From IMG/VR virus record IMGVR_UViG_3300045988_001646, positions 1 through 43,538 of that record: a stretch of 43,538 bases of DNA, one strand, 5' to 3'. A model generated the notes under the pieces. It did no database searches. It saw nothing but the letters and a program-made list of their open reading frames with translations, and was not told the origin of the DNA. This document shows positions 16,344-30,297 of the stretch, piece after piece; the first letter of the stretch is position 1; every line of letters begins with the position of its first letter. The translations under genes and the position numbers were made by a program. This stretch comes from a virus.

Positions 16344-17573
16344 TCAACTGCTTCGTGCTGGGCTATGACAAGCGCCTGCTTCTGGCAGATGTCCAATAGC
16401 TCGCCGGCAATTTCCGCCAGGCGCTCCACCAGCTCCTGTGAGTGCACTCGTCCATCCCTCCTTGTCTGGCCAAAAGCCGAATGTCTCCCGGAAAATCCGT
16501 GCCGACGCGCAAATGGCTCGGCGGCTGTTTCCCCTTGACATATGCCCAAAGTAGGCCGCCCATACAGGCCGCACATCCGCGAGAGTCATCTTCCCCGTCT
16601 CCACCATCCGTTGCAGCTTCGGCAGCTTTTTCCTAAATCGTACAGTGGCATCTCTCCCCATGCGCATTTTCACGCCGCCGCTCGGCCTTGTGTGGTAGCG
16701 GCACTTCAAAAACACGGATTTCTCCACAGGGGATATGCCGGTTTTCCCCTCATTGAGCCGTAGGCCGATTTGCTCCGTCGCCGCCCGGATTTTCTCCAGG
16801 CACATTTGCAGGTAAGGCAGCTCATCGTGCATGGCGTAGCCGTCATCGTTGTACCTCCCGTAGCCCTTCAGCCGCAGCTTGTCCCGGCACAGGTGGTCGA
16901 TAGGTGATGCCAGCAGCAGGGCGCATATCTGCGATACTTGGCTTCCCAGCCCCAGCCCCGCCGGGCCAAAATCCCGGATGAAGCGGTTTACTTCCTCGGC
17001 AATACGCTGGTCATGGAATAGCCGGCGGTTGGCTTCAAAAATCGGCGCATGAGGCGCGGTATCGAAAAATTTTCTGAAGTCATACCGCAGCACATACCCA
17101 CCCCGTCTTGCCTGCCGGGAAACCTGTTGTTTATAGCGCCGCATGGCAAAGTCCATGCCCTTGCCGCTCAAAGATGCCGAATTGTCGTAAACGAAGGTCG
17201 CTCGGTAGATCGGCGTCAAGACGAAGTCGCAAAGGCACTTTTGTACCACCCGTTCCGTGATATGCACCGCCCGGATGCGCCTCGCCTTGCCTCGCTCATG
17301 CACCGTAAACTCGTGAAATCCGCGATGCTTGAAGGTCCCGGCTAAAATATCCGTATGTATGTCCGCCACCCTTGTCAGCATATTATCCATCAAATTTTGG
17401 GTGCTGGCTTTCCACCGTACACCTCGGCAGCACTTCTTTGCGGATTTCCACAGGTGTAGAAAACTGAATACCTCCTCGAAATTGCCACAAGCGCGGCTCC
17501 GTTCGCTGGTTCTTTTCTCTCTTTCGGCCCTCCGGCGCTGATACCGCGCCTCCCGCCGCTCCTCGTTGCTCAT
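16344..17573 (-). CDS. DGR reverse transcriptase
   Basis: 409 aa. GGAGG RBS. RT motifs include LGSQVSQ (DGR-type [LIV]GxxxSQ) and YNDD. Sits downstream of the TR. Confidence 0.9.
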   Translation of the reverse strand: MSNEERREARYQRRRAEREKRTSERSRACGNFEEVFSFLHLWKSAKKCCRGVRWKASTQNLMDNMLTRVADIHTDILAGTFKHRGFHEFTVHERGKARRIRAVHITERVVQKCLCDFVLTPIYRATFVYDNSASLSGKGMDFAMRRYKQQVSRQARRGGYVLRYDFRKFFDTAPHAPIFEANRRLFHDQRIAEEVNRFIRDFGPAGLGLGSQVSQICALLLASPIDHLCRDKLRLKGYGRYNDDGYAMHDELPYLQMCLEKIRAATEQIGLRLNEGKTGISPVEKSVFLKCRYHTRPSGGVKMRMGRDATVRFRKKLPKLQRMVETGKMTLADVRPVWAAYFGHMSRGNSRRAICASARIFRETFGFWPDKEGWTSALTGAGGAPGGNCRRAIGHLPEAGACHSPARSS

Positions 17574-17776
17574 TTTTGCGCCTCCGTACAGTCTTATTGT
17601 CGGGTGCGGGTTCTAACTGCGTAGTCGCCGCCATGCAACCGGGTACCGCACATCCCCGGCCATGCACACAAGCGTCCGGCGGCGAGGCATCGGCGGCGAG
17701 TTTAACGGGTCAGGCGCTCCTTCGCTCAAGGCGTCGTTTTCAGCAAACCTGCTTACTAAGTCCTACCTAAGGTAGA

Positions 17777-17901
17777 GCGAATCCGGGGGAAACGCCACGC
17801 AAGTTGCTGGCGTTGTTGTTGTTGAGACTGCCGCTGGTGCTGACATTGTAGAAGTTTCTGGAGTTGCCGGTGTTGGCGTCCCGAAGCCACCAGTACACCG
17901 C
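17777..17901 (-). repeat. DGR template repeat (TR)
   Basis: 125-nt gap-free alignment to 18451-18575. The sense strand contains AAC x4 in tandem plus other AAY codons. 13 of 14 mismatches are at TR adenines. Confidence 0.9.
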
Positions 17902-17954
17902 CCCACTGCCGACACCACCGCCGCACAGATATAGCGCCTGCCCTATATAAAGGG

Positions 17955-18383
17955 CTACGATAGCCCCTTATACCGTTCCCTATCGCCTTTCCGTACCTTT
18001 CCGATTAGCTTTGCCTCCGCGCTGATCAGCTCGCCGTGCTTCTGCATGGCGTGAGGCACCCACTTATACCGCGCCTTCTCGCCCTGCAAAAGCTCTTCAT
18101 ACAAGTCCTCCAAATCATCCGCCAGGTTTTGAAGCGCCACATTGGCCCGCCCCATATAGTCGGCGCGTATCTGCGCCTCATGGGCGTTATGCACATAGGT
18201 GTTGTTGGCTGCCTTTACGCTGTGCAGCACCTCTCGCGCCTCCTCGTAGATGGGGCCCAGCAAAAAGAATTGCAGCCGCTTGGGGCACTTTTTTACCACC
18301 GTCAGGGTGTGCTGCTTCAGCTCCCGGGCCGTCTGTATAAACTGCATAGGTGACTCGCCTCTTTGGCTTTTCGGTACGGACAT
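17955..18383 (-). CDS. avd: Accessory variability determinant (Avd)-like protein
   Basis: 142 aa from the ATG at 18383 (AAAGGAAAGG RBS). Helical, basic. Lies between the target gene and the TR, as in canonical DGRs. Confidence 0.75.
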   Translation of the reverse strand: MSVPKSQRGESPMQFIQTARELKQHTLTVVKKCPKRLQFFLLGPIYEEAREVLHSVKAANNTYVHNAHEAQIRADYMGRANVALQNLADDLEDLYEELLQGEKARYKWVPHAMQKHGELISAEAKLIGKVRKGDRERYKGLS

Positions 18384-18402
18384 GACCTTTCCTTTCTGCC
18401 AC

Positions 18403-18422
18403 CGCCCCATCTAAGGGGCGGA
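18403..18422 (-). promoter_or_regulatory. GC-rich hairpin downstream of VR (candidate DGR target-recognition hairpin)
   Basis: On the minus strand: CCGCCCC-TTAGAT-GGGGCGG. It starts 22 nt after the target-gene stop codon. Confidence 0.5.
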
Positions 18423-18443
18423 TGGCCTTGTGATGATTTTCGA

Positions 18444-19427
18444 TTAAAATGCGAAGCCGGGGGAAACGCCACGCACGTTGCTGGCGTAGTAGCTGCCGAG
18501 ACTGCCGCTGGTGCTGACAAAGTAGAAGCAACCGGAGTCGCCGGTGTTGGCGTCCCGAAGCCACCAGTACACCGCGTTCCCGCTCGCGTTTTTCTTAATA
18601 AACGGGGCACTGCCACCCCTACCATAGAGCCGGTAAGCAACAGCGCCTGTAACAGTCACTCCCGCCTGACTGTGCAGGGCCAGCTTGTCCAGAGTAGGCG
18701 TTGTGCCGAGATTATTTGCCAGCTTCCGCGTCAGCATGACCTCTTGCCACTCTGTCGGGATGGTGGCAAGCATCGCAGAGATCGTGGTATTGCGCATCTC
18801 TGTATTGGCCCAGCCGCCGGAATTTGTGTTGGTGGGGTTCATCCGGGCATCGGCAATAGATAGCACCGTATCCAGCGTCATGCCGCACTTGCCCGTTTTC
18901 GTAGAGCGATATTCGCCCGGGTCCGCCATGTCGTCGGTGTTGAAGCTGATTACCTGCACCGCCCACTCACTGCCGTTAATGGACAAAGGCATAGTGTCCC
19001 CAATGCTGATTTTCCGGCTTTCTGCGCCGCAGTTCAGCCATACGGCATTCGTGGTGTTGTTGATGGAGTTGTTGTTGGAGATAGCTTCTCCGTAAACATG
19101 CATCAGCTCCGGAGTAACACCCTCCAGGCCTTCTTTGTAGGTCACCCCGCCGGTGGGGGCAGTGTTAGCTACGGCGACCACAGGCAAGAAGAAAACCGGA
19201 GGCACAGTGTAGATTTTTGCCGGGCCCACCAGGCCGTCCTTAGAGGCCTGTATGGTCCAGGTGCCTACCTTAGATAGCTTCAGCTCGGCTATCCCTTCCG
19301 CGTCCGCTACAGCGGTTATTGTGGTGCCTGTGGTGGTAGCGGTAACGGTAGCCCCTGCGTCTGTATTCACGATGACCTCGCCGCCCTTGCTACCACCGCC
19401 CCCGCCAATCCTCATAATATTCGCCAT
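18444..19427 (-). CDS. DGR target protein (virion surface/receptor-binding candidate with a C-type-lectin-like variable C-terminus)
   Basis: 327 aa. The C-terminus YWWLRDANTGDSGCFYFVSTSGSLGSYYASNVRGVSPGFAF is encoded by the VR. Follows the tail-fibre gene. Confidence 0.85.
   Translation of the reverse strand: MANIMRIGGGGGSKGGEVIVNTDAGATVTATTTGTTITAVADAEGIAELKLSKVGTWTIQASKDGLVGPAKIYTVPPVFFLPVVAVANTAPTGGVTYKEGLEGVTPELMHVYGEAISNNNSINNTTNAVWLNCGAESRKISIGDTMPLSINGSEWAVQVISFNTDDMADPGEYRSTKTGKCGMTLDTVLSIADARMNPTNTNSGGWANTEMRNTTISAMLATIPTEWQEVMLTRKLANNLGTTPTLDKLALHSQAGVTVTGAVAYRLYGRGGSAPFIKKNASGNAVYWWLRDANTGDSGCFYFVSTSGSLGSYYASNVRGVSPGFAF
18451..18575 (-). repeat. DGR variable repeat (VR)
   Basis: Matches the TR at 111 of 125 positions. 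Lies at the 3' end of the target ORF and ends 4 nt before its stop codon. Confidence 0.9.
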
Positions 19428-25747: not shown

Positions 25748-27190
25748 TTAATACACTTGATAAAATGCGTACCGGCTGGGCCTGTACTCGTCCTCTGTCT
25801 CCAGCGGGGAATACGGCCGCTCCACCGTCCTGTATTCCTCCCGCGGCCCTATGGGATTGCGCATGCACACATACCGCAGCTGGTCATAGATGTGGTCCTC
25901 GCCGTCGGTGTCGATGTCCTCCACGTCCGTCTGGTCATAGACCAGGTTCGGCACCGTCCGTATAAAATGCTTGCAGGTGCTGAACACATACAGCATGGGC
26001 ACTCCATCCTCGTCAAAGGCCAGCCGGTGATGCACCTGCATCTTGCCGTTGATCCGCGCGTGGTCACCCTTCTCGAAGTACACCCGCTGCCGCTCCATCA
26101 GCGCGCCCACGCTCTCCGTGCCGTCGCTCTGCCAGATGGCCGGATCTCCCACCCGGTGTATCTGCTTCCCCTTCAGGTTGGGATCCTCGTCCTCGATCCT
26201 CCGTATCTCCTGCGCCACCTTTGTTGGCTCCCACATCACGCCCCGGTTTGGTGTTCCCGTGCAGCCGTATAGCTCCCGTATATGGTACATCCGCCTGTTG
26301 CGGTCCACGGCGTACCACCCCACGGAAAAGGGCCGGGAATAGCCCCAGTCCAGTCCGCACCAGATCACCCAGTCCTCCGGCACCCGGAACGGCGCGATCA
26401 CGTGGGTGTTCTTCCGGTCCATATAGTGCTCGCTGTCGTTGCGCCACTCCGTGAACACCTGTCCCTCGAAGCTGTCCCAGTTGCCGTACAGCAGGGCGTT
26501 CCGCTCCGCCTCCGGCATGCTGGCCAGCCGCTGGACGTACATGGGGTCGTTTTCCATCAGTATCTTGTTGTCAAATACCGAGGACGGCACGAAGATCCGC
26601 TTCTGCTGCCCTATGTGCCTCCTGCCGTCCGGCGTGTACCACGCGGCCTCCTCCGTGATGGTCTGCATCGGCGCCGCCGCCGTGATGAAGCGCTCCTTCA
26701 CCCACCCGTGGCCTACGCCGCCGGGGTTGGCCGTGGAGCGCATATACACCCGCGTCCCCGGTCCGTTAGGCCGGTTTCGGGATTTCAGGTATTCGTATTC
26801 CTCCTGCGTAAAGTGCGTCAGCTCGTCAAAGGCGATAAAGTCATAGGCCTGCCCCTGGTACTGTATCTTGTCCTGCGGCCGGTTCATGCTGCCGAACACG
26901 ATCTGCGCCCCGGAGGGAAACCGCCATGTGTGGCTGCTGCCGTTGTACCTGGCCTTTGGGTATACCCGTGGGTAGTAGTTCAGCGTCTTGTCGATCAGCT
27001 CCCGCAGCTGCGGGAACGTCTTTCGCAAGATCAGCGCCTTGTACCAAGGGATATGCACCTGCCGCAGCGCCTCGATGACCAGTGCGTCGCTCTTGCCGCC
27101 GCCGGCCGCACCGCCGTACAGCGCCTCATACTCCGGCCGCGCCATAAATATGGCCTGCCGCTCCTGCGGCCGCCATACCACGCTACTCAT
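25748..27190 (-). CDS. terL: Terminase large subunit
   Basis: 480 aa. Walker A GGAAGGGKS. C-terminal nuclease-type region. Overlaps the terS stop. Confidence 0.9.
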   Translation of the reverse strand: MSSVVWRPQERQAIFMARPEYEALYGGAAGGGKSDALVIEALRQVHIPWYKALILRKTFPQLRELIDKTLNYYPRVYPKARYNGSSHTWRFPSGAQIVFGSMNRPQDKIQYQGQAYDFIAFDELTHFTQEEYEYLKSRNRPNGPGTRVYMRSTANPGGVGHGWVKERFITAAAPMQTITEEAAWYTPDGRRHIGQQKRIFVPSSVFDNKILMENDPMYVQRLASMPEAERNALLYGNWDSFEGQVFTEWRNDSEHYMDRKNTHVIAPFRVPEDWVIWCGLDWGYSRPFSVGWYAVDRNRRMYHIRELYGCTGTPNRGVMWEPTKVAQEIRRIEDEDPNLKGKQIHRVGDPAIWQSDGTESVGALMERQRVYFEKGDHARINGKMQVHHRLAFDEDGVPMLYVFSTCKHFIRTVPNLVYDQTDVEDIDTDGEDHIYDQLRYVCMRNPIGPREEYRTVERPYSPLETEDEYRPSRYAFYQVY

Positions 27191-27581
27191 CCCTGACCTC
27201 CGGCATCAGCACCACGCCGCTCTCGCCATTGTCCGATGCCTTGTTCATCATGGTCCACTTGTCGATCAGCGTACCTATCGCCGTGGTGATCTGGCTGGGC
27301 GTGGCCTCCGCCAGCTTTGCCGGGTCATTCAGCACCGCCAGCCCATTTCCGATGATCTGGCACACCACATCCCGCTGGCTCTCCATATACGCCAGAATGT
27401 CTGCCGTGTTCTGTGCTTTTTTCTCCGCGGCTTTTTGTTCAAAGTCGTCGCTTGCTTCAACAACGCGCTTTACCGTGGTAGGGTTTACGTTGTTTTTCCT
27501 TGCCGTGGCGCGATAGCTGCCGCTTTCCAGATAATCCGCCAGTATTTTCTTTTTCTGCCGGTCTGTCAGTCTCGCAGCCAT
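27183..27581 (-). CDS. terS: Terminase small subunit (HTH-containing)
   Basis: 132 aa from the ATG at 27581 (GAGGTGA RBS). N-terminal HTH (SYRATARKNNVNPTTVKR). Lies directly upstream of terL. Confidence 0.75.
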   Translation of the reverse strand: MAARLTDRQKKKILADYLESGSYRATARKNNVNPTTVKRVVEASDDFEQKAAEKKAQNTADILAYMESQRDVVCQIIGNGLAVLNDPAKLAEATPSQITTAIGTLIDKWTMMNKASDNGESGVVLMPEVRDE

Positions 27582-28098
27582 GTTATCACCTCGTTTTGTC
27601 TGACGCACCGGCCTCCCACCACTGGCCTTTGTCGTTGGCACGTCTGTACCCGGCTTTCGCCTCACCTAATATGTTCCCGCCGTGAGCTATGTGCCCCGCA
27701 AGCATACATAGCATCCACCACGGCGAAATCCTTTGCAGTAAGCAGACTATTTGAGACGCATCCCATACAGCGGTCTGCCAGCGCATCGCCTGTTGTTTTA
27801 CACAATCGGTCGGGTACCACCACGCATCAATACTATCCTACACAGCGGCTTTGTCCTAAGACAACCGCCACCACACCACATCCACGCCTCGGATTTCTCT
27901 CAAACACGGTGGTACCCAAACCAACCACGGAACTTTTCAGCCCTGCGCCGGTACGTCGGTCGCATCCGTTCATCTTTACAAAGCCGGTGCCAGCCAATAC
28001 ATAAATTACTTCGTCCTGCCGCTTTCGTACAGCGCACAGGAAAGACCACTTTCGCAGGCTTACGCTCCGTGCGGCTGCGAGGCAAGAGGTCACGCCTA
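27582..28098 (-). other. 517-nt ORF-free segment (candidate large structured RNA and/or pac region)
   Basis: No credible ORF on either strand in an otherwise tightly packed genome. CCACCAC occurs at 27616, 27715, 27817 and 27868. A 10-bp inverted repeat GGGTACCACC (27812-27821) / GGTGGTACCC (27909-27918) is present. Confidence 0.5.
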
Positions 28099-28177
28099 TG
28101 GTGCAGACAGCAAGATTTGAACTTGCGAACCCGAAAATTCTTCATATCGGAGCTGTATCCACCCAGCTTCTGCCTGC
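28099..28177 (-). tRNA. Non-canonical tRNA, probable anticodon GAA (Phe-like), with an aberrant anticodon arm
   Basis: 7-bp acceptor GCAGGCA/TGTCTGC. D-arm AGCT(G)...(C)AGCT with GG in the loop. T-arm GCAAG-TTCAAAT-CTTGC. Encoded ACCA. The anticodon region CCGATATGAAGAATTTTCGG needs either a 3-U bulge or an 8-nt loop. U8 is absent. Confidence 0.6.
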
Positions 28178-28191
28178 ATATTGCTCCCTCC

Positions 28192-28213
28192 GGGCGGAGC
28201 CGAAGCCCCGCCC
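28192..28213 (-). promoter_or_regulatory. UUCG-capped GC hairpin 5' of the tRNA
   Basis: On the minus strand: GGGCGGGGC-TTCG-GCTCCGCCC (9 bp, one G-U), 15 nt upstream of the tRNA 5' end. Confidence 0.5.
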
Positions 28214-28230
28214 ATCAGGAAAAGAAGGGG

Positions 28231-28327
28231 GAAAAGAAAAAAAGAATGGAGATGCAGAGTTTGCCCCTGCATCTCCCATGATAAAATGCGTTTTTTCAAT
28301 TTTTCCACTTTTAAGTGGAATTTTCAA
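28231..28327 (-). promoter_or_regulatory. Late regulatory module B: TTGAAA box, 18-bp palindrome, TGn-AAAAAT, then intrinsic terminator
   Basis: On the minus strand: TTGAAA-A-TTCCACTTAAAAGTGGAA-AAAT, then 21 nt, then a 12-bp hairpin GGAGATGCAGGG/CTCTGCATCTCC followed by ATTCTTTTTTTCTTTT. Confidence 0.6.
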
Positions 28328-28330
28328 AAT

Positions 28331-28564
28331 TTATTTTTCGGAAATATCTACTACGCAGGGATAGTCCGTCCTGCCCATCAGATAATCCACCGACACACCA
28401 AATTCATCCGCTATGCTCTTCAGCGCATCCATCGTCGGCTTCGCCGTCCCCAGCTCATACCGCCGTATGGCATCCGAATTCAGCCCGCAGCGCTCCGACA
28501 GCACATACCGCTTCAGTCTCTTTTTCTCCCGCAGCTTTCTCAGCCGTTCCGGGAATTCGCTCAT
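28331..28564 (-). CDS. XRE-family HTH protein (last early gene, abuts late module B)
   Basis: 77 aa. GGAGGAGG RBS. Classic HTH_3 sequence (LRKLREKKRLKRYVLSERCGLNSDAIRRYELG). Confidence 0.8.
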   Translation of the reverse strand: MSEFPERLRKLREKKRLKRYVLSERCGLNSDAIRRYELGTAKPTMDALKSIADEFGVSVDYLMGRTDYPCVVDISEK

Positions 28565-28862: not shown

Positions 28863-29094
28863 CTGCCCCGTCCTTTCGTTCGCCGTAGGAGCAGAAATCG
28901 TCATACCCGCTGGCAACCATCCGGCAAGCGTATGTTTTGAACTTCAGACAGTCCTTGCACCGCACCACGACCTCTGCGTCTACGGTGGGCGCCGCGCTCA
29001 CAATGGGCAAAGCAATCTCGTCTCTATCTGCATTATCAAACCACGGCTCGTTATCAAGCCGTTCCCATAGATCGTCGCCATCAATCAGCCGCAT
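28849..29094 (-). CDS. MRLIDGD-family small protein (paralogue 1)
   Basis: 81 aa starting MRLIDGDDL. Shares PTVDAEVVVRCKDC with 29382-29639. Its start overlaps the upstream stop (ATGCGGCTGATTGA). Confidence 0.65.
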   Translation of the reverse strand: MRLIDGDDLWERLDNEPWFDNADRDEIALPIVSAAPTVDAEVVVRCKDCLKFKTYACRMVASGYDDFCSYGERKDGADAKG

Positions 29095-29377
29095 CGTTGT
29101 CACCTCCGTCCATTTTCGCGCCACAATTAGGGCAATAAGGAGTGAGGTCAAACCCCACTCTACGCCTGCACTTCGAGCACCTATATCCACTAATAGGGTC
29201 TATTTTATTCACACACACCCACACCCCATGCACCACCGGGGTAACATCAGCGGCGGGAAGTTTCAACATATCCATCTGGATAATCGACAGCATCCTATTT
29301 TGAGCCACACTGTTCTCCGGTCTACGCATCCGCAAAACAGATTTTACTGCCGCTGCTCGTTCAATATATTCAGCCAT
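29081..29377 (-). CDS. Zn-ribbon small protein, AADVxPVVHGxW / CPxCGAKMDG family (paralogue 1)
   Basis: 98 aa. GGGAGG RBS. Starts MAEYIERAAAV and ends CPNCGAKMDGGDNDAAD. Confidence 0.7.
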   Translation of the reverse strand: MAEYIERAAAVKSVLRMRRPENSVAQNRMLSIIQMDMLKLPAADVTPVVHGVWVCVNKIDPISGYRCSKCRRRVGFDLTPYCPNCGAKMDGGDNDAAD

Positions 29378-29381
29378 TGGC

Positions 29382-29639
29382 TTATCCTCCCTCGTGGCAA
29401 TATCCGTTTTCGTCCGTGTCCTTGCTCCAATAGGTGCAGTGCAGGACATTTCCGATCACCACTGATTGATAGCAGTCCTTACAGCGCACCACGACCTCTG
29501 CGTCTACGGTGGGGAGCTGCTCTGCATACTCCATCACCGACTCGATACCGTTGATGAAATGCGTGTTGGCGTGTTCTTTGTCACAATGGTTTGCCCGAAT
29601 GGGAAACTCTTGCAGTTTGTCACCATCAATCAGCCTCAT
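29382..29639 (-). CDS. MRLIDGD-family small protein (paralogue 2)
   Basis: 85 aa starting MRLIDGDKL. Same junction sequence with its upstream gene as paralogue 1. Confidence 0.65.
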   Translation of the reverse strand: MRLIDGDKLQEFPIRANHCDKEHANTHFINGIESVMEYAEQLPTVDAEVVVRCKDCYQSVVIGNVLHCTYWSKDTDENGYCHEGG

Positions 29640-29838
29640 CGTTGTCACCTCCATCCATCTTCGCGGAGTTCTCCACAAAGTTGCAGACTCTGGCCGCGCA
29701 GCAGAGGCACAGTTGTTTCTCCGCAGAAAATGGTGTCTTAAAATTCACAACGCCATAGTGATTGAAATCCAGATTCACGCCGTCAACCTCGTAGTCAATC
29801 TCGCGCCCGCACATATCACAGAACACTTTAACCATCAA
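29626..29838 (-). CDS. CxxC...CxxC small protein (MVKxFCDxCG family, paralogue 1)
   Basis: 70 aa. Starts MMVKVFCDMCGREI and ends SAKMDGGDNDEAD. Confidence 0.6.
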   Translation of the reverse strand: MMVKVFCDMCGREIDYEVDGVNLDFNHYGVVNFKTPFSAEKQLCLCCAARVCNFVENSAKMDGGDNDEAD

Positions 29839-30125
29839 CTATTCCTCCCGTCCATCTTCGCGCCGCAGCTGGGGCAGTAGTTGCGCTTGTGGTTGTTCCA
29901 CATATCGCAGCACGTTGATACATACCCCTCGGCAACAGGCGTTCCGCTTCGGTAGTGCGTTACCCACCGCCCATGCACCACCGGGGCCACGTCAGCAGCG
30001 GGCATATAATGCACTTCCGCCATGATTTCAATGGCATCATGTCCAAATCTCTTGGCTACATCCTGGTTGTTCAGCCCATCCTCGATAAACTTTTCAACAG
30101 CTTCCCGCTCAATGTATTCAGCCAT
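29835..30125 (-). CDS. Zn-ribbon small protein, AADVxPVVHGxW / CPxCGAKMDG family (paralogue 2)
   Basis: 96 aa. Starts MAEYIEREAVE, contains AADVAPVVHGRW and CPSCGAKMDGRNS. Confidence 0.7.
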   Translation of the reverse strand: MAEYIEREAVEKFIEDGLNNQDVAKRFGHDAIEIMAEVHYMPAADVAPVVHGRWVTHYRSGTPVAEGYVSTCCDMWNNHKRNYCPSCGAKMDGRNS

Positions 30126-30297
30126 TGTCCTTCTCCTCCCCATTAAACCACTTCCGCAGTTTGTGCGCGCACGAAACACACAGCTCGTAGTCGTTGTCGT
30201 TTATGTCGTTCTTAATCCGCCGCATACCGGCATAGGTGACGTAGATGGGCGGGTTGATCTCCGCTCCGCATCGGTCACACACTCTCTTTGTCGCCAT
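30118..30297 (-). CDS. CxxC...CxxC small protein (paralogue 2)
   Basis: 59 aa. Starts MATKRVCDRCGAEI and contains LCVSCAHKL. Confidence 0.55.
   Translation of the reverse strand: MATKRVCDRCGAEINPPIYVTYAGMRRIKNDINDNDYELCVSCAHKLRKWFNGEEKDNG

What the first reader, a model, noticed from the sequence alone, without database searches (positions are those of the whole stretch)
27582..28098. 517-nt ORF-free segment between the tRNA and terS: large structured RNA or pac region
Everywhere else on the minus strand, genes are separated by 0-100 nt or overlap. Here 517 nt have no credible ORF on either strand; the 66-, 81- and 86-aa minus-strand track ORFs are W/C/R-rich with no RBS. The heptamer CCACCAC (GTGGTGG in the transcript) occurs four times: 27616, 27715, 27817 and 27868. 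The first three are about 100 nt apart. GATGCG recurs four times in the transcript sense. A 10-bp inverted repeat GGGTACCACC (27812-27821) / GGTGGTACCC (27909-27918) can close a domain with a loop of about 87 nt, and several local GC helices are visible. Large ornate ncRNAs of the ROOL/GOLLD class are known to sit next to tRNA genes in Firmicutes prophages, which matches this context. Alternatively, periodic repeats just upstream of terS could be TerS-binding boxes of a pac site.
Basis: partly seen in the sequence, partly recalled or inferred. Interest (0 to 1): 0.7.

Follow-up and report, generated by a model that had tools for sequence, protein, structure and literature searches.

The report
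New large structured phage RNA family
The gap before the phage's DNA-packaging genes encodes a large, intricately folded non-coding RNA that starts right after a tRNA-like element; it belongs to a family found in well over a hundred gut-phage contigs, is absent from the Rfam catalogue, and sits in the same kind of place as the enigmatic ROOL and GOLLD RNAs.

Summary

**Anatomy.** Window 28098→27798 (minus strand) is a ~300-nt RNA core.
- It starts exactly after the ...ACCA end of a degenerate tRNA-like element (28177-28099).
- It is followed by a lineage-variable insert (27797-27669).
- A ~70-nt 3' module (27668-27600) then ends 7 nt before the putative terS Shine-Dalgarno sequence.

**Distribution.** About 160 IMG/VR gut-phage contigs, 2 GenBank fecal phages and 3 MAG contigs (two labelled Oscillospiraceae/Oscillibacter) carry it, one copy each, usually inside true tRNA islands.

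**Evidence that it is RNA.**
- On 45 diverse sequences, 98.4% of 67 modelled pairs are kept, against 35-47% in slid controls.
- 16 pairs show compensatory changes.
- A loop-loop pair switches C:G to U:A with no exception in 116 unique sequences.
- G·U outnumbers A·C 421 to 19, so the gene-sense strand is the functional one.
- Substitutions show no codon periodicity.
- Rfam 15 gives no hit even at E≤10.

**Function.** Unknown. Most likely it is a stable RNA excised from the tRNA-island transcript. A cis-acting leader role for the packaging operon is the main rival.

The parts
28248..28276 (-). Intrinsic-terminator-like hairpin (12 bp) plus U tract. It ends the upstream XRE-regulator operon. Two sigma-70-like promoter matches lie just upstream (28327-28299 and 28307-28278). 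This is context for how the RNA island is transcribed.
   Evidence: The same hairpin plus pyrimidine tract is conserved upstream of the tRNA-like element in many related loci.
28192..28213 (-). GC-rich hairpin GGGCGGGGC-UUCG-GCUCCGCCC, conserved just upstream of the tRNA-like element.
   Evidence: Sequence read. The hairpin recurs in front of different tRNA-like bodies in related loci.
28099..28177 (-). Degenerate tRNA-like element. It has a 7-bp acceptor stem, a D arm, a T arm with a UUCAAAU loop, a 4-bp 'anticodon' stem with a 12-nt loop, discriminator A and an encoded CCA. The structured RNA starts at the very next base.
   Evidence: Rfam tRNA model 24.2 bits, below the 29-bit threshold. 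ARAGORN calls nothing. The minimum-free-energy fold is a cloverleaf, z = -2.28. An identical element is found in 10 or more related loci, and other loci have other tRNA or tRNA-like bodies at the same place.
27798..28098 (-). Conserved structured RNA core, 301 nt, the defining unit of the family. The helices listed in the evidence are the covariation-supported parts; the 5' ~57 nt have two competing pairing schemes.
   Evidence: The covariance model R1 scores 337.7 bits at 27798-28097(-), the only hit in the window.

Modelled helices, in window coordinates:
- hairpin H4, 28041-28014
- hairpin H6, 27995-27982
- H7/H8, 27969-27927
- loop-loop pairing UACG 28029-28026 with CGUA 27955-27952
- long-range helix H9, 27916-27909 with 27820-27813
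- hairpin H11, 27869-27844

On 45 sequences the 67 pairs are 98.4% paired and 16 pairs show double changes.
27812..27917 (-). It contains hairpin H11 and the conserved G-rich stretch GGAUGUGGUGUGGUGGCGG.
   Evidence: Perfect 10-bp inverted repeat. All 8 modelled pairs covary. At least five different helix sequences occur across the family: GGGUACCACC, GGGUGCCGGC, GGCAUUGC, GGCGCUGC and GCGUACAGAAC types.
27669..27797 (-). Lineage-variable insert made of two hairpin modules. One (GGCAGAC...GUCUGCU, with an inner UGCG-loop hairpin) recurs elsewhere in related RNA islands. The other is a long hairpin, CGCCGUG...CACGGCG.
   Evidence: This stretch is absent, shorter or replaced in relatives: the 3' module starts 19 to 143 nt after the core end. 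Fold, z = -0.93, so not exceptional on its own. The first module also occurs upstream of tRNA-like elements in other loci.
27600..27668 (-). 3' module: a GGC-GAAA-GCC hairpin, then helix GACGUGCC/GGUGCGUC enclosing hairpin GGCC-AGUGGUGGGA-GGCC. It ends 7 nt before the Shine-Dalgarno sequence of the first packaging gene.
   Evidence: It is conserved in front of different downstream genes (window-type terS, another terS, ParB-like). It is present in 40 of 127 unique downstream contexts; a second type with similar architecture by eye is present in 32. Covariation is weak: one G-C to C-G swap, with a few mismatching recombinants. MAFFT could not align the two types.
27183..27592 (-). Shine-Dalgarno sequence GAGGUG (27592-27587) and the putative small terminase gene (ATG at 27581). 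The gene overlaps the large terminase gene (25748-27190).
   Evidence: ORF list. terL matches Terminase_6N and the portal is P22-like. The 132-aa protein has only a weak HTH_28 match and no PHROG hit, so 'terS' rests on position.

Best explanation
The ORF-free segment is the gene for a large structured non-coding RNA of a family that Rfam does not hold.

**Shown.**
- A ~300-nt core begins at the first base after the 3'-CCA of a tRNA-type element. It folds into a compact multi-helix structure with a long-range domain-closing helix and a loop-loop tertiary pairing.
- The structure is conserved through compensatory changes on the gene-sense strand only.
- The core occurs once per genome, at the head of the packaging module, in about 160 gut-phage contigs. 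It usually sits inside a real tRNA island, and in a fifth of contexts it is flanked by tRNAs on both sides.

**Inferred.**
- It is transcribed together with the tRNA or tRNA-like genes, in the same direction as the late packaging genes.
- It is cut out by the host tRNA-maturation machinery: 3'-end processing of the upstream tRNA-like element, and RNase P at a downstream tRNA where one is present.
- It then accumulates as a stable, autonomously folded RNA that acts in trans during late infection. It would do so as an RNA particle or as a ligand for a conserved host component, by analogy with ROOL and GOLLD.
- In the window, a variable insert and a 3' module tie the core directly to the putative terS ribosome-binding site. 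The 3' end may therefore stay attached to the packaging mRNA.
For: **Homologues.**
- It is also in 2 GenBank fecal phages and 3 MAG contigs, two of them labelled Oscillospiraceae/Oscillibacter.

**Junction.** In nearly every locus the element follows an ...NCCA 3' end, whatever tRNA body lies upstream.

**Structure.**
- RNAalifold predicts 63 pairs, 15 of them with compensatory changes.
- With the loop-loop pairing added, the model has 67 pairs that are 98.4% paired, against 35-47% in slid controls. There are 207 doubly changed cells against ≤54, and the covariation score is 0.258 against ≤0.06.
- C72:G145 switches to U:A with no exception in 116 unique sequences, and both states occur on several sequence backgrounds.
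- GNRA loops are kept as GAAA or GGAA.

**Strand.** G·U cells number 421 against 19 A·C. Pairing is 98.4% on the sense strand and 85.1% on the antisense strand.

**Non-coding.** No 3-nt periodicity, and indels are mostly not multiples of three.

**Autonomy of the core.**
- Covariance model R1 finds exactly one copy per locus in 100 sources.
- In L001 and L062 the order is tRNA, then core, then tRNA, with gaps of 3 and 13 nt.
- A tRNA-Gly starts 12 nt after the core in 25 of 127 unique contexts.

**Context parallel.** ROOL and GOLLD are described as phage RNAs 'often near tRNA islands', and GOLLD can carry tRNAs in its linker (PMC12286853).
Against: - No expression, end-mapping or stability data exist. 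Processing and trans action are inferences.
- In the window there is no terminator between the RNA and terS. The 3' module always ends 5-25 nt before the Shine-Dalgarno sequence of whatever gene comes first. That fits a cis-acting leader at least for that module.
- The single-sequence fold of the window segment is not exceptional on the sense strand (z = -1.57). It is nominally better on the antisense strand (z = -3.13).
- The sequences fall into a few lineages, so many column pairs co-vary for phylogenetic reasons. Helices H3, H6, H7 and H8 barely vary, so they are neither supported nor contradicted.
- The 5' ~57 nt have two mutually exclusive pairing schemes.
- No promoter for the island could be identified. 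A strong terminator lies just upstream.
Confidence: 0.6

Rival explanations
1. It is a cis-acting 5' leader of the packaging/late operon. The folded RNA stays attached to the mRNA and controls its fate. Possible routes are protection of a processed 5' end from exonucleases, recruitment or standby binding of ribosomes through the G-rich SD-like loop of the 3' module, or modification of RNA polymerase for read-through of the long late operon.
For: - It is always in the same orientation as the packaging genes and immediately upstream of them. The first downstream gene is ParB-like in 33 loci, window-type terS in 30 and other terS types in 8 or more.
- The 3' module ends 5-25 nt before the Shine-Dalgarno sequence of different genes.
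- No terminator separates the RNA from terS, and a promoter-plus-terminator arrangement lies upstream.
- The 3' module loop (AGUGGUGGGAGG or AAGGGGCGGGGG) resembles a Shine-Dalgarno sequence.
Against: - In 25 of 127 contexts the core is followed by a tRNA 12 nt later, not by a gene or a 3' module.
- The core sequence is nearly invariant across phages whose downstream genes differ.
- A ~300-nt core with tertiary contacts is far larger than known leader or antitermination RNAs such as put or EAR (my own knowledge).
- The 3' module has only weak covariation.
Confidence: 0.22
2. It is a catalytic or processing element. One version is a ribozyme that cleaves at its own 5' edge and so releases the upstream tRNA-like element with a defined CCA end. 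Another is the RNA part of a small mobile module that inserts at tRNA 3' ends.
For: - The 5' boundary coincides with the base after CCA in nearly every locus, although the upstream tRNA bodies differ.
- Flanks are unrelated between loci, giving a mosaic distribution.
- In L158 and L160 a 16-nt stretch, GCAATGCCGTACCAGA, occurs on both sides of the core.
- The highly conserved unpaired stretches are compatible with an active site.
Against: - No Rfam self-cleaving ribozyme or intron model matches even at E≤10.
- The first ~20 nt differ completely between the three 5' types, which is unusual for a cleavage-site helix.
- There is no recombinase, and no universally linked protein within ±4 kb (only 18 loci).
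- There is one copy per genome, always in the same genomic position.
Confidence: 0.08
3. It is a divergent member of ROOL or GOLLD that the Rfam models fail to detect.
For: - The genomic setting is the same: a phage, beside tRNAs (PMC12286853).
- The layout is domain, then variable linker, then domain. In L026 the linker carries an acceptor-stem/ACCA module, which recalls GOLLD linkers that carry tRNAs.
Against: - No ROOL or GOLLD match at gathering score in the window or in 11 homologous loci.
- No match at E≤10 with relaxed filters on a 1-kb slice.
- The core is ~300 nt, against roughly 580 nt for ROOL (my own recollection) and more than 800 nt for many GOLLD members.
- Here the 5' part is universal and the 3' part optional, the reverse of GOLLD.
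Confidence: 0.04
4. It is a DNA-level packaging signal: a pac or cos region with periodic TerS-binding boxes (CCACCAC).
For: - It lies just upstream of the putative terS.
- Four CCACCAC copies occur in 517 nt, three of them about 100 nt apart.
Against: - Only one heptamer copy is conserved across the family and one more within one 3'-module type; the other two lie in a helix that is replaced wholesale and in a lineage-specific insert.
- Spacing changes with the insert, from 19 to 143 nt.
- Conservation follows RNA pairing rules with a strong G·U excess on one strand.
- The element also occurs between tRNAs, away from any terS.
- The heptamer is enriched across the whole genome on the + strand.
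Confidence: 0.03
5. It is a small protein gene or a decayed gene. The candidates are the 86-aa minus-strand ORF that is coextensive with the conserved block, and the long open frames on the plus strand.
For: - The 86-aa ORF 27833-28093(-) spans the most conserved block and is also open in L001.
- The plus strand is stop-free over the whole core in most homologues.
Against: - Substitutions show no codon periodicity: 49/49/45 variable sites by phase.
- 660 of 764 indels are not multiples of three.
- The 86-aa frame has one or more stops in most homologues, and the open plus-strand frame differs between sequences.
- Compensatory base-pair changes explain the conservation.
Confidence: 0.01

Closest known systems
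[quoted passage not shown]
   Same: - A phage or prophage RNA found beside or inside tRNA islands.
- The cryo-EM specimen env-38 lies downstream of a tRNA-Met.
- It has two conserved parts separated by a variable linker that can carry tRNAs.
- Its function is unknown (PMC12286853).
- Here the RNA starts right after a tRNA-like element, has a core, a variable insert and a 3' module, and in L026 the insert carries an acceptor-stem/ACCA module.
   Different: - No match to the Rfam model.
- The whole element in the window is about 500 nt (core ~300 nt), against more than 800 nt for many GOLLD members.
- In GOLLD the 3' region is universal and the 5' region is variable. Here the 5' core is universal and the 3' module is optional.
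- The hosts are gut Oscillospiraceae-type Clostridia.
- Oligomerisation is untested here.
ROOL RNA (Rfam family; Rumen-Originating, Ornate, Large)
   Same: - Encoded in phages and prophages of Firmicutes, often near tRNA islands.
- Complex predicted structure with pseudoknots.
- No known protein partner and unknown function (PMC12286853).
- Here there is a multi-helix fold with a covarying loop-loop pairing, and no universally linked protein gene.
   Different: - No match to the Rfam model even at E≤10.
- The core is roughly half the ~580-nt size I recall for ROOL (my own knowledge), and the sequence motifs differ.
- The fixed junction with a CCA end and the position at the head of the packaging module are not, to my knowledge, defining features of ROOL.
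Stable RNAs co-transcribed with phage tRNA clusters (phage T4 species 1 and 2 RNAs) and tRNA-like processing signals
   Same: - A structured RNA of unknown function embedded in a phage tRNA cluster.
- It would be released by the enzymes that mature the neighbouring tRNAs. This comparison rests on my own knowledge of T4 biology.
   Different: - The T4 RNAs are much smaller, and no relationship was tested.
- Processing here is inferred only from the tRNA, core, tRNA geometry.
UG27 reverse-transcriptase ncRNA arrays in prophages (bioRxiv 10.64898/2026.09.22.753630)
   Same: - Modular arrays of structured, sequence-diverse ncRNA units in gut phages, with gain and loss of units.
- The relatives of this window also carry modular arrays of structured RNA units around the core.
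   Different: - UG27 units are ~135-167 nt hairpins that lie beside the RT and its two accessory genes and template cDNA.
- Here the element is about 10 kb from the window's only RT. That RT is part of a classical diversity-generating retroelement with a template/variable repeat pair.
- The core is a single-copy ~300-nt multi-helix RNA.

Membership tests
ROOL (Rfam) | Match to the curated covariance model at or above its gathering score | tested here: not met
   No hit in the window at gathering score. No ROOL hit at E≤10 on 27400-28400 with relaxed filters. None in 11 homologous loci.
ROOL (Rfam) | Phage or prophage location near tRNA genes | tested here: met
   The RNA starts directly after a tRNA-like element. 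In L001, L062 and L115 it lies inside arrays of Rfam-confirmed tRNAs.
ROOL / GOLLD | Assembly into homo-oligomeric RNA-only cages | not testable with these tools
   This needs cryo-EM or SEC-MALS on in vitro transcripts. The only related observation is a covarying loop-loop pairing whose partners could in principle pair within or between molecules.
GOLLD (Rfam) | Match to the curated covariance model at or above its gathering score | tested here: not met
   No hit.
GOLLD (Rfam) | Universally conserved 3' region with a less conserved 5' region | tested here: not met
   Here the 5' core is universal, with one copy in every locus. The 3' module is present in only 72 of 127 unique contexts and comes in two types.
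tRNA (RF00005), for the adjacent element at 28099-28177 | Score at or above the 29-bit gathering threshold and a 7-nt anticodon loop | tested here: not met
   The score is 24.2 bits and 10 nt are inserted in the anticodon loop region. ARAGORN finds nothing. The fold has a 12-nt loop on a 4-bp stem. Elements at the same position in other loci do pass: 49 bits in L001, 45 in L039, and tRNA-Trp in others.
pac site with TerS-binding repeats | Repeated boxes conserved in sequence, number and spacing among related phages, on duplex DNA | tested here: not met
   Only one of the four CCACCAC copies is conserved across the family and one more within one 3'-module type. Spacing varies with the insert. 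Conservation is strand-specific, G·U 421 against A·C 19.
pac site with TerS-binding repeats | Packaging-initiation ends map to the region | not testable with these tools
   No virion sequencing reads are available.
Group I/II introns and small self-cleaving ribozymes (Rfam models) | Match to any curated intron or ribozyme covariance model | tested here: not met
   No such match at E≤10 in 27400-28400.
Structured non-coding RNA (generic criterion) | Secondary structure kept through compensatory changes, above slid-partner and shuffle controls, with no coding signal | tested here: met
   for structure and strand. for the absence of coding signal.

The most novel reading that the evidence does not exclude
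This is a third, independent class of large ornate phage RNA from tRNA islands. Like ROOL and GOLLD, it would work as an RNA-only machine. It could self-assemble through its covarying GUAC-type loop-loop contacts. Or it could capture tRNA or tRNA-like 3' ends: its conserved UGGUG stretches are complementary to NCCA ends. In either case it would manipulate host tRNA or ribosome function during late infection. Its fixed fusion to a tRNA mimic would give a direct handle on what this whole group of RNAs does.
Probability: 0.25. Interest if true: 0.85.

Novelty: new variant of a known kind. Interest (0 to 1): 0.72.

Why it matters
Large, highly structured bacterial and phage RNAs of unknown function are rare, and each one found so far (OLE, GOLLD, ROOL, raiA) has become a research programme. 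ROOL and GOLLD were recently shown to form RNA-only cages, yet their biology is still unknown.

A further, unrelated family in the same genomic niche (phage tRNA islands) would show that this niche repeatedly breeds complex RNAs. This family also comes with unusually sharp anatomical clues:
- an exact junction with a tRNA-type CCA end;
- tRNA mimics with disabled anticodon arms;
- a fixed position at the head of the packaging operon;
- near-invariant single-stranded stretches.

It is abundant in human-gut phages of Oscillospiraceae-type hosts, so material for RNA-seq re-analysis should exist. At ~300 nt the core is small enough for chemical probing and cryo-EM.

If it turns out to be only a leader of the late operon, it would still be an unusually elaborate one for a phage.

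Tried and rejected
1. **Rfam.** I ran gathering score on the whole window, E≤10 on 27400-28400 and gathering score on 11 homologous loci. The only results were a sub-threshold tRNA, noise, true tRNAs and the unrelated RT-2 RNA.
2. **Coding.** The 86-aa ORF and the open plus-strand frames were tested by frame conservation, substitution phase and indel lengths, and rejected.
3. **TerS boxes.** Heptamer conservation and spacing were checked on alignments and the idea was rejected.
4. **Long-range pairing, 5' end to 3' module.** I tried pairing the C/U-rich 5' end (CCUCUUGCC) with the G-rich loop of the 3' module. Inspection of variants showed no compensating changes: U12→C in L004 and L019 is not matched. 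I dropped it.
5. **Linked protein partner.** I clustered sense-strand ORFs within ±4 kb. Only 18 loci had enough flank and no family was universal.
6. **Formal covariation for the 3' module across its two types.** MAFFT misaligned them. The similarity of architecture is therefore by eye only.
7. **Structure-aware alignment.** mafft-qinsi was not usable in the sandbox.
8. **Published catalogue.** The IMG/VR candidate structured RNA paper has no supplementary files held, so overlap with unnamed catalogue entries cannot be excluded.
9. **UG27 ncRNA arrays** were considered and rejected as a different system.
10. **Genome scan.** 9 of the 12 hits were chance matches in coding DNA of unrelated bacteria.
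11. **Column-pair covariation scan.** It was dominated by lineage splits and was not used as evidence by itself.
12. **5' domain.** Two competing pairings were left unresolved. H1/H3 shows only one-sided changes. A local hairpin (columns 21-24 with 44-47) has one A-U to G-C swap.
Full report
**What is at the coordinates**

The window is a ~43.5-kb phage genome whose genes mostly run on the minus strand. The large terminase gene (25748-27190, Terminase_6N) and a P22-like portal gene lie just downstream of the segment. A 132-aa HTH-containing ORF with its ATG at 27581 overlaps terL and is a positional small terminase.

Upstream lie an XRE-type regulator gene (28331-28564), two sigma-70-like promoter matches, and a strong intrinsic-terminator-like hairpin at 28276-28248.
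- CCACCAC occurs at the four stated positions.
- The perfect 10-bp inverted repeat is at 27812-27821 / 27908-27917, so the second arm is off by one.
- The "tRNA" is only tRNA-like. ARAGORN finds none and Rfam's tRNA model gives 24.2 bits against a 29-bit threshold. The fold is a cloverleaf with a 12-nt "anticodon" loop on a 4-bp stem.

**Known families**

Rfam 15 finds nothing in 27582-28098, either at gathering score or at E≤10 on a 1-kb slice with relaxed filters. In particular it finds no ROOL, GOLLD, intron or self-cleaving ribozyme. The only curated RNA in the window is RT-2 at 17559-17770, which belongs to an unrelated retroelement.

**Homologues**

BLAST against GenBank phages gave two unannotated human-fecal phages that match only window 28128→27831, with unrelated flanks.

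Together these give 167 loci with the element, counting the window, mostly from one large human-gut data set.

A scan of 185,579 species-representative genomes found only three real copies. They lie on contigs of an Oscillospiraceae MAG, an Oscillibacter MAG and one bin labelled Staphylococcaceae. The other nine hits were chance matches in coding DNA. The family is therefore essentially a phage family, with probable Oscillospiraceae hosts.

**Boundaries and modules**

In nearly every locus the conserved sequence begins at the base after an ...NCCA end. This holds although the upstream bodies differ: several tRNA-like types, true tRNA-Trp, or a 92-nt non-tRNA cloverleaf-like RNA with a 7-bp acceptor-type stem and ACCA tail. 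A few loci have CACA or an extra A instead.

The core is ~300 nt (window 28098→27798). What follows differs between 127 unique contexts:

| What follows the core | Unique contexts |
|---|---|
| 3' module of the window's type | 40 |
| 3' module of a second type with similar layout by eye | 32 |
| tRNA-Gly starting 12 nt after the core | 25 |
| Something else | 30 |

The 3' module starts 19 to 143 nt after the core. It always ends 5-25 nt before the Shine-Dalgarno sequence of the first packaging-module gene, whichever gene that is: window-type terS, other terS types or a ParB-like protein.

In the window, a 129-nt insert of two hairpin modules separates the core from the 3' module. In L001 and L062 the order is Rfam-confirmed tRNA, then core, then tRNA, with gaps of 3 and 13 nt. 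The core is thus an autonomous unit embedded in tRNA islands. The window shows a compact version: one degenerate tRNA-like element, the core, the insert and the 3' module.

**It is RNA, not protein and not a DNA site**
- Variable sites are spread 49/49/45 over the three phases.
- 660 of 764 indels are not multiples of three.
- The 86-aa ORF that happens to span the conserved block has stops in most homologues.
- The stop-free plus-strand frame is not the same frame in different sequences.

RNAalifold on 45 sequences below 96.5% identity predicts 63 pairs, 15 of them with compensatory changes. I added a loop-loop pairing seen in a column scan (UACG 70-73 with CGUA 144-147). The resulting 67-pair model compares with its controls as follows:

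| Measure | Model | Slid-partner control | Shuffle control |
|---|---|---|---|
| Cells paired | 98.4% | 35-47% | 92.7% |
| Doubly changed cells | 207 | ≤54 | 73 |
| Covariation score | 0.258 | ≤0.06 | 0.154 |

Hairpins H4 and H11 also covary.

The loop-loop pair C72:G145 switches to U:A in 116 unique sequences without exception. Both states occur on several 5'-type and long-helix backgrounds.

G·U cells outnumber A·C cells 421 to 19. The same pairs would be only 85.1% paired on the other strand. The functional strand is therefore the gene-sense minus strand, even though the single-sequence MFE z-score looked better on the plus strand.

**Limits of the structural model**
- Helices H3, H6, H7 and H8 hardly vary. 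Part of that invariance comes from my search patterns.
- Lineage structure inflates single-column correlations.
- The first ~57 nt have two competing schemes: long-range H1 plus H3, or a local hairpin with one A-U to G-C swap.
- A 5' terminal hairpin exists in all three 5' types with unrelated sequences: AGGC/GCCU, AUGC/GCAU and GCGU/ACGC. I read these.

A covariance model of the core (R1, 306 positions) scores 337.7 bits in the window and finds exactly one copy per locus in 100 sources.

- The 27868 copy of GUGGUGG (transcript sense) lies in a conserved G-rich stretch of the core.
- The 27616 copy is the loop of the 3' module.
- The 27817 copy is one strand of the covarying helix, and other lineages replace that sequence wholesale.
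- The 27715 copy lies in the lineage-specific insert.

The ~100-nt periodicity is therefore accidental. One GAUGCG copy is a UGCG tetraloop hairpin and another is a conserved stem in the core.

**How it most likely works**

Shown: a single-copy, strand-specific, compactly folded RNA that starts at a tRNA-type 3' end and sits in tRNA islands at the head of the packaging module.

Inferred: it is co-transcribed with the tRNA or tRNA-like genes and released by tRNA maturation. It then acts as a stable RNA in trans late in infection.

The near-invariance of ~100-nt stretches across phages with different flanking genes argues for a conserved partner or a demanding tertiary fold. This is the same setting described for ROOL and GOLLD (PMC12286853), but the RNA fails their membership test.

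The main rival is a cis-acting leader. It is favoured by the 3' module abutting the ribosome-binding site and by the absence of a terminator before terS. It is disfavoured by the tRNA-flanked cores. Both could be true for different parts: the core acting in trans and the 3' module in cis.

No universally linked protein gene was found, but only 18 loci had enough flanking sequence to test this.

**Novelty**

The family is not in Rfam 15, and I found no paper in the held library that describes it. A catalogue of about 8,500 unnamed IMG/VR structure candidates exists (PMC10690425), but its tables are not held, so fragments of this RNA may be listed there.

I rate it a new family of a known kind: large structured phage RNAs of tRNA islands.

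Noticed in passing
window 16344-19427 (minus strand): A complete diversity-generating retroelement.
- The reverse transcriptase is at 16344-17573 (RVT_1).
- The Rfam RT-2 RNA is at 17559-17770 (111.7 bits).
- A 125-nt template repeat is at 17777-17901.
- An 89%-identical variable repeat is at 18451-18575, at the 3' end of the 327-aa gene 18444-19427.
- This is the other ORF-free gap on the minus strand.
   Followed up: partly
L091, L092, L105, L113, L117, L158 and others, the 92 nt before the core; also inside the insert of L026: A conserved non-tRNA RNA module, GCGGCAUAGGUGCCCCGUAAGGGG...GCAAUGCCGUACCA. It folds into a four-way, cloverleaf-like structure with a 7-bp acceptor-type stem and an ACCA tail (z = -3.73). 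It takes the place of the tRNA-like element. It looks like a tRNA mimic without a T loop.
   Followed up: partly
Related loci, 100-330 nt upstream of the core (e.g. L104, L107, L115, L117, L125, L161): The region before the packaging genes in these phages is a long mosaic of several distinct conserved non-coding modules. Many end in ...CACCA, and they are mixed with true tRNAs. The core studied here is only one unit of a larger modular RNA island.
   Followed up: no
L085 and L086, about 230-350 nt upstream of the core: ARAGORN calls a tRNA with a four-base anticodon (gagt). Several other adjacent 'tRNAs' are 82 nt long or have odd anticodon arms. Most tRNA-type elements in these islands may not be decoders.
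   Followed up: no
window 28238-28327 (minus strand): Two sigma-70-like promoter matches are followed within ~25-50 nt by a strong terminator hairpin and a long pyrimidine tract. The arrangement is conserved with different promoter-region sequences in related loci. This is either the end of the XRE operon or a promoter-proximal terminator that needs antitermination to enter the RNA island and late genes.
   Followed up: partly
L003 and L015: Natural deletion variants of the core. They lack roughly element positions 84-240 and join GCGGCAG directly to UUAGGACAAAGCC. They still score 89.5 bits with the covariance model.
   Followed up: no
L158 and L160: The 16-nt stretch GCAATGCCGTACCAGA occurs both at the junction before the core and ~30 nt after it. 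This is either a remnant of recombination between element variants or a target-site-like duplication.
   Followed up: no
L006, L016, L024, L053, L055, L061, L064, L086: The held sequence of several loci ends inside the element or within ~100 nt of it. If these are true contig ends, as expected for assembly breaks at a sequence shared by co-occurring phages, they should not be read as packaging termini.
   Followed up: no
window, whole length: CCACCAC is enriched genome-wide: 22 copies against 6.9 expected, 19 of them on the + strand. Its excess in the segment is therefore partly a property of the genome's composition.
   Followed up: partly
window 29081-30179 (minus strand): A run of small paralogous proteins, two of which match phrog_22543. 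They share a C-terminal CP.CGAKMDG motif and lie just upstream of the regulator gene. Similar small proteins are the most frequent upstream neighbours in related loci (10 of 18).
   Followed up: no
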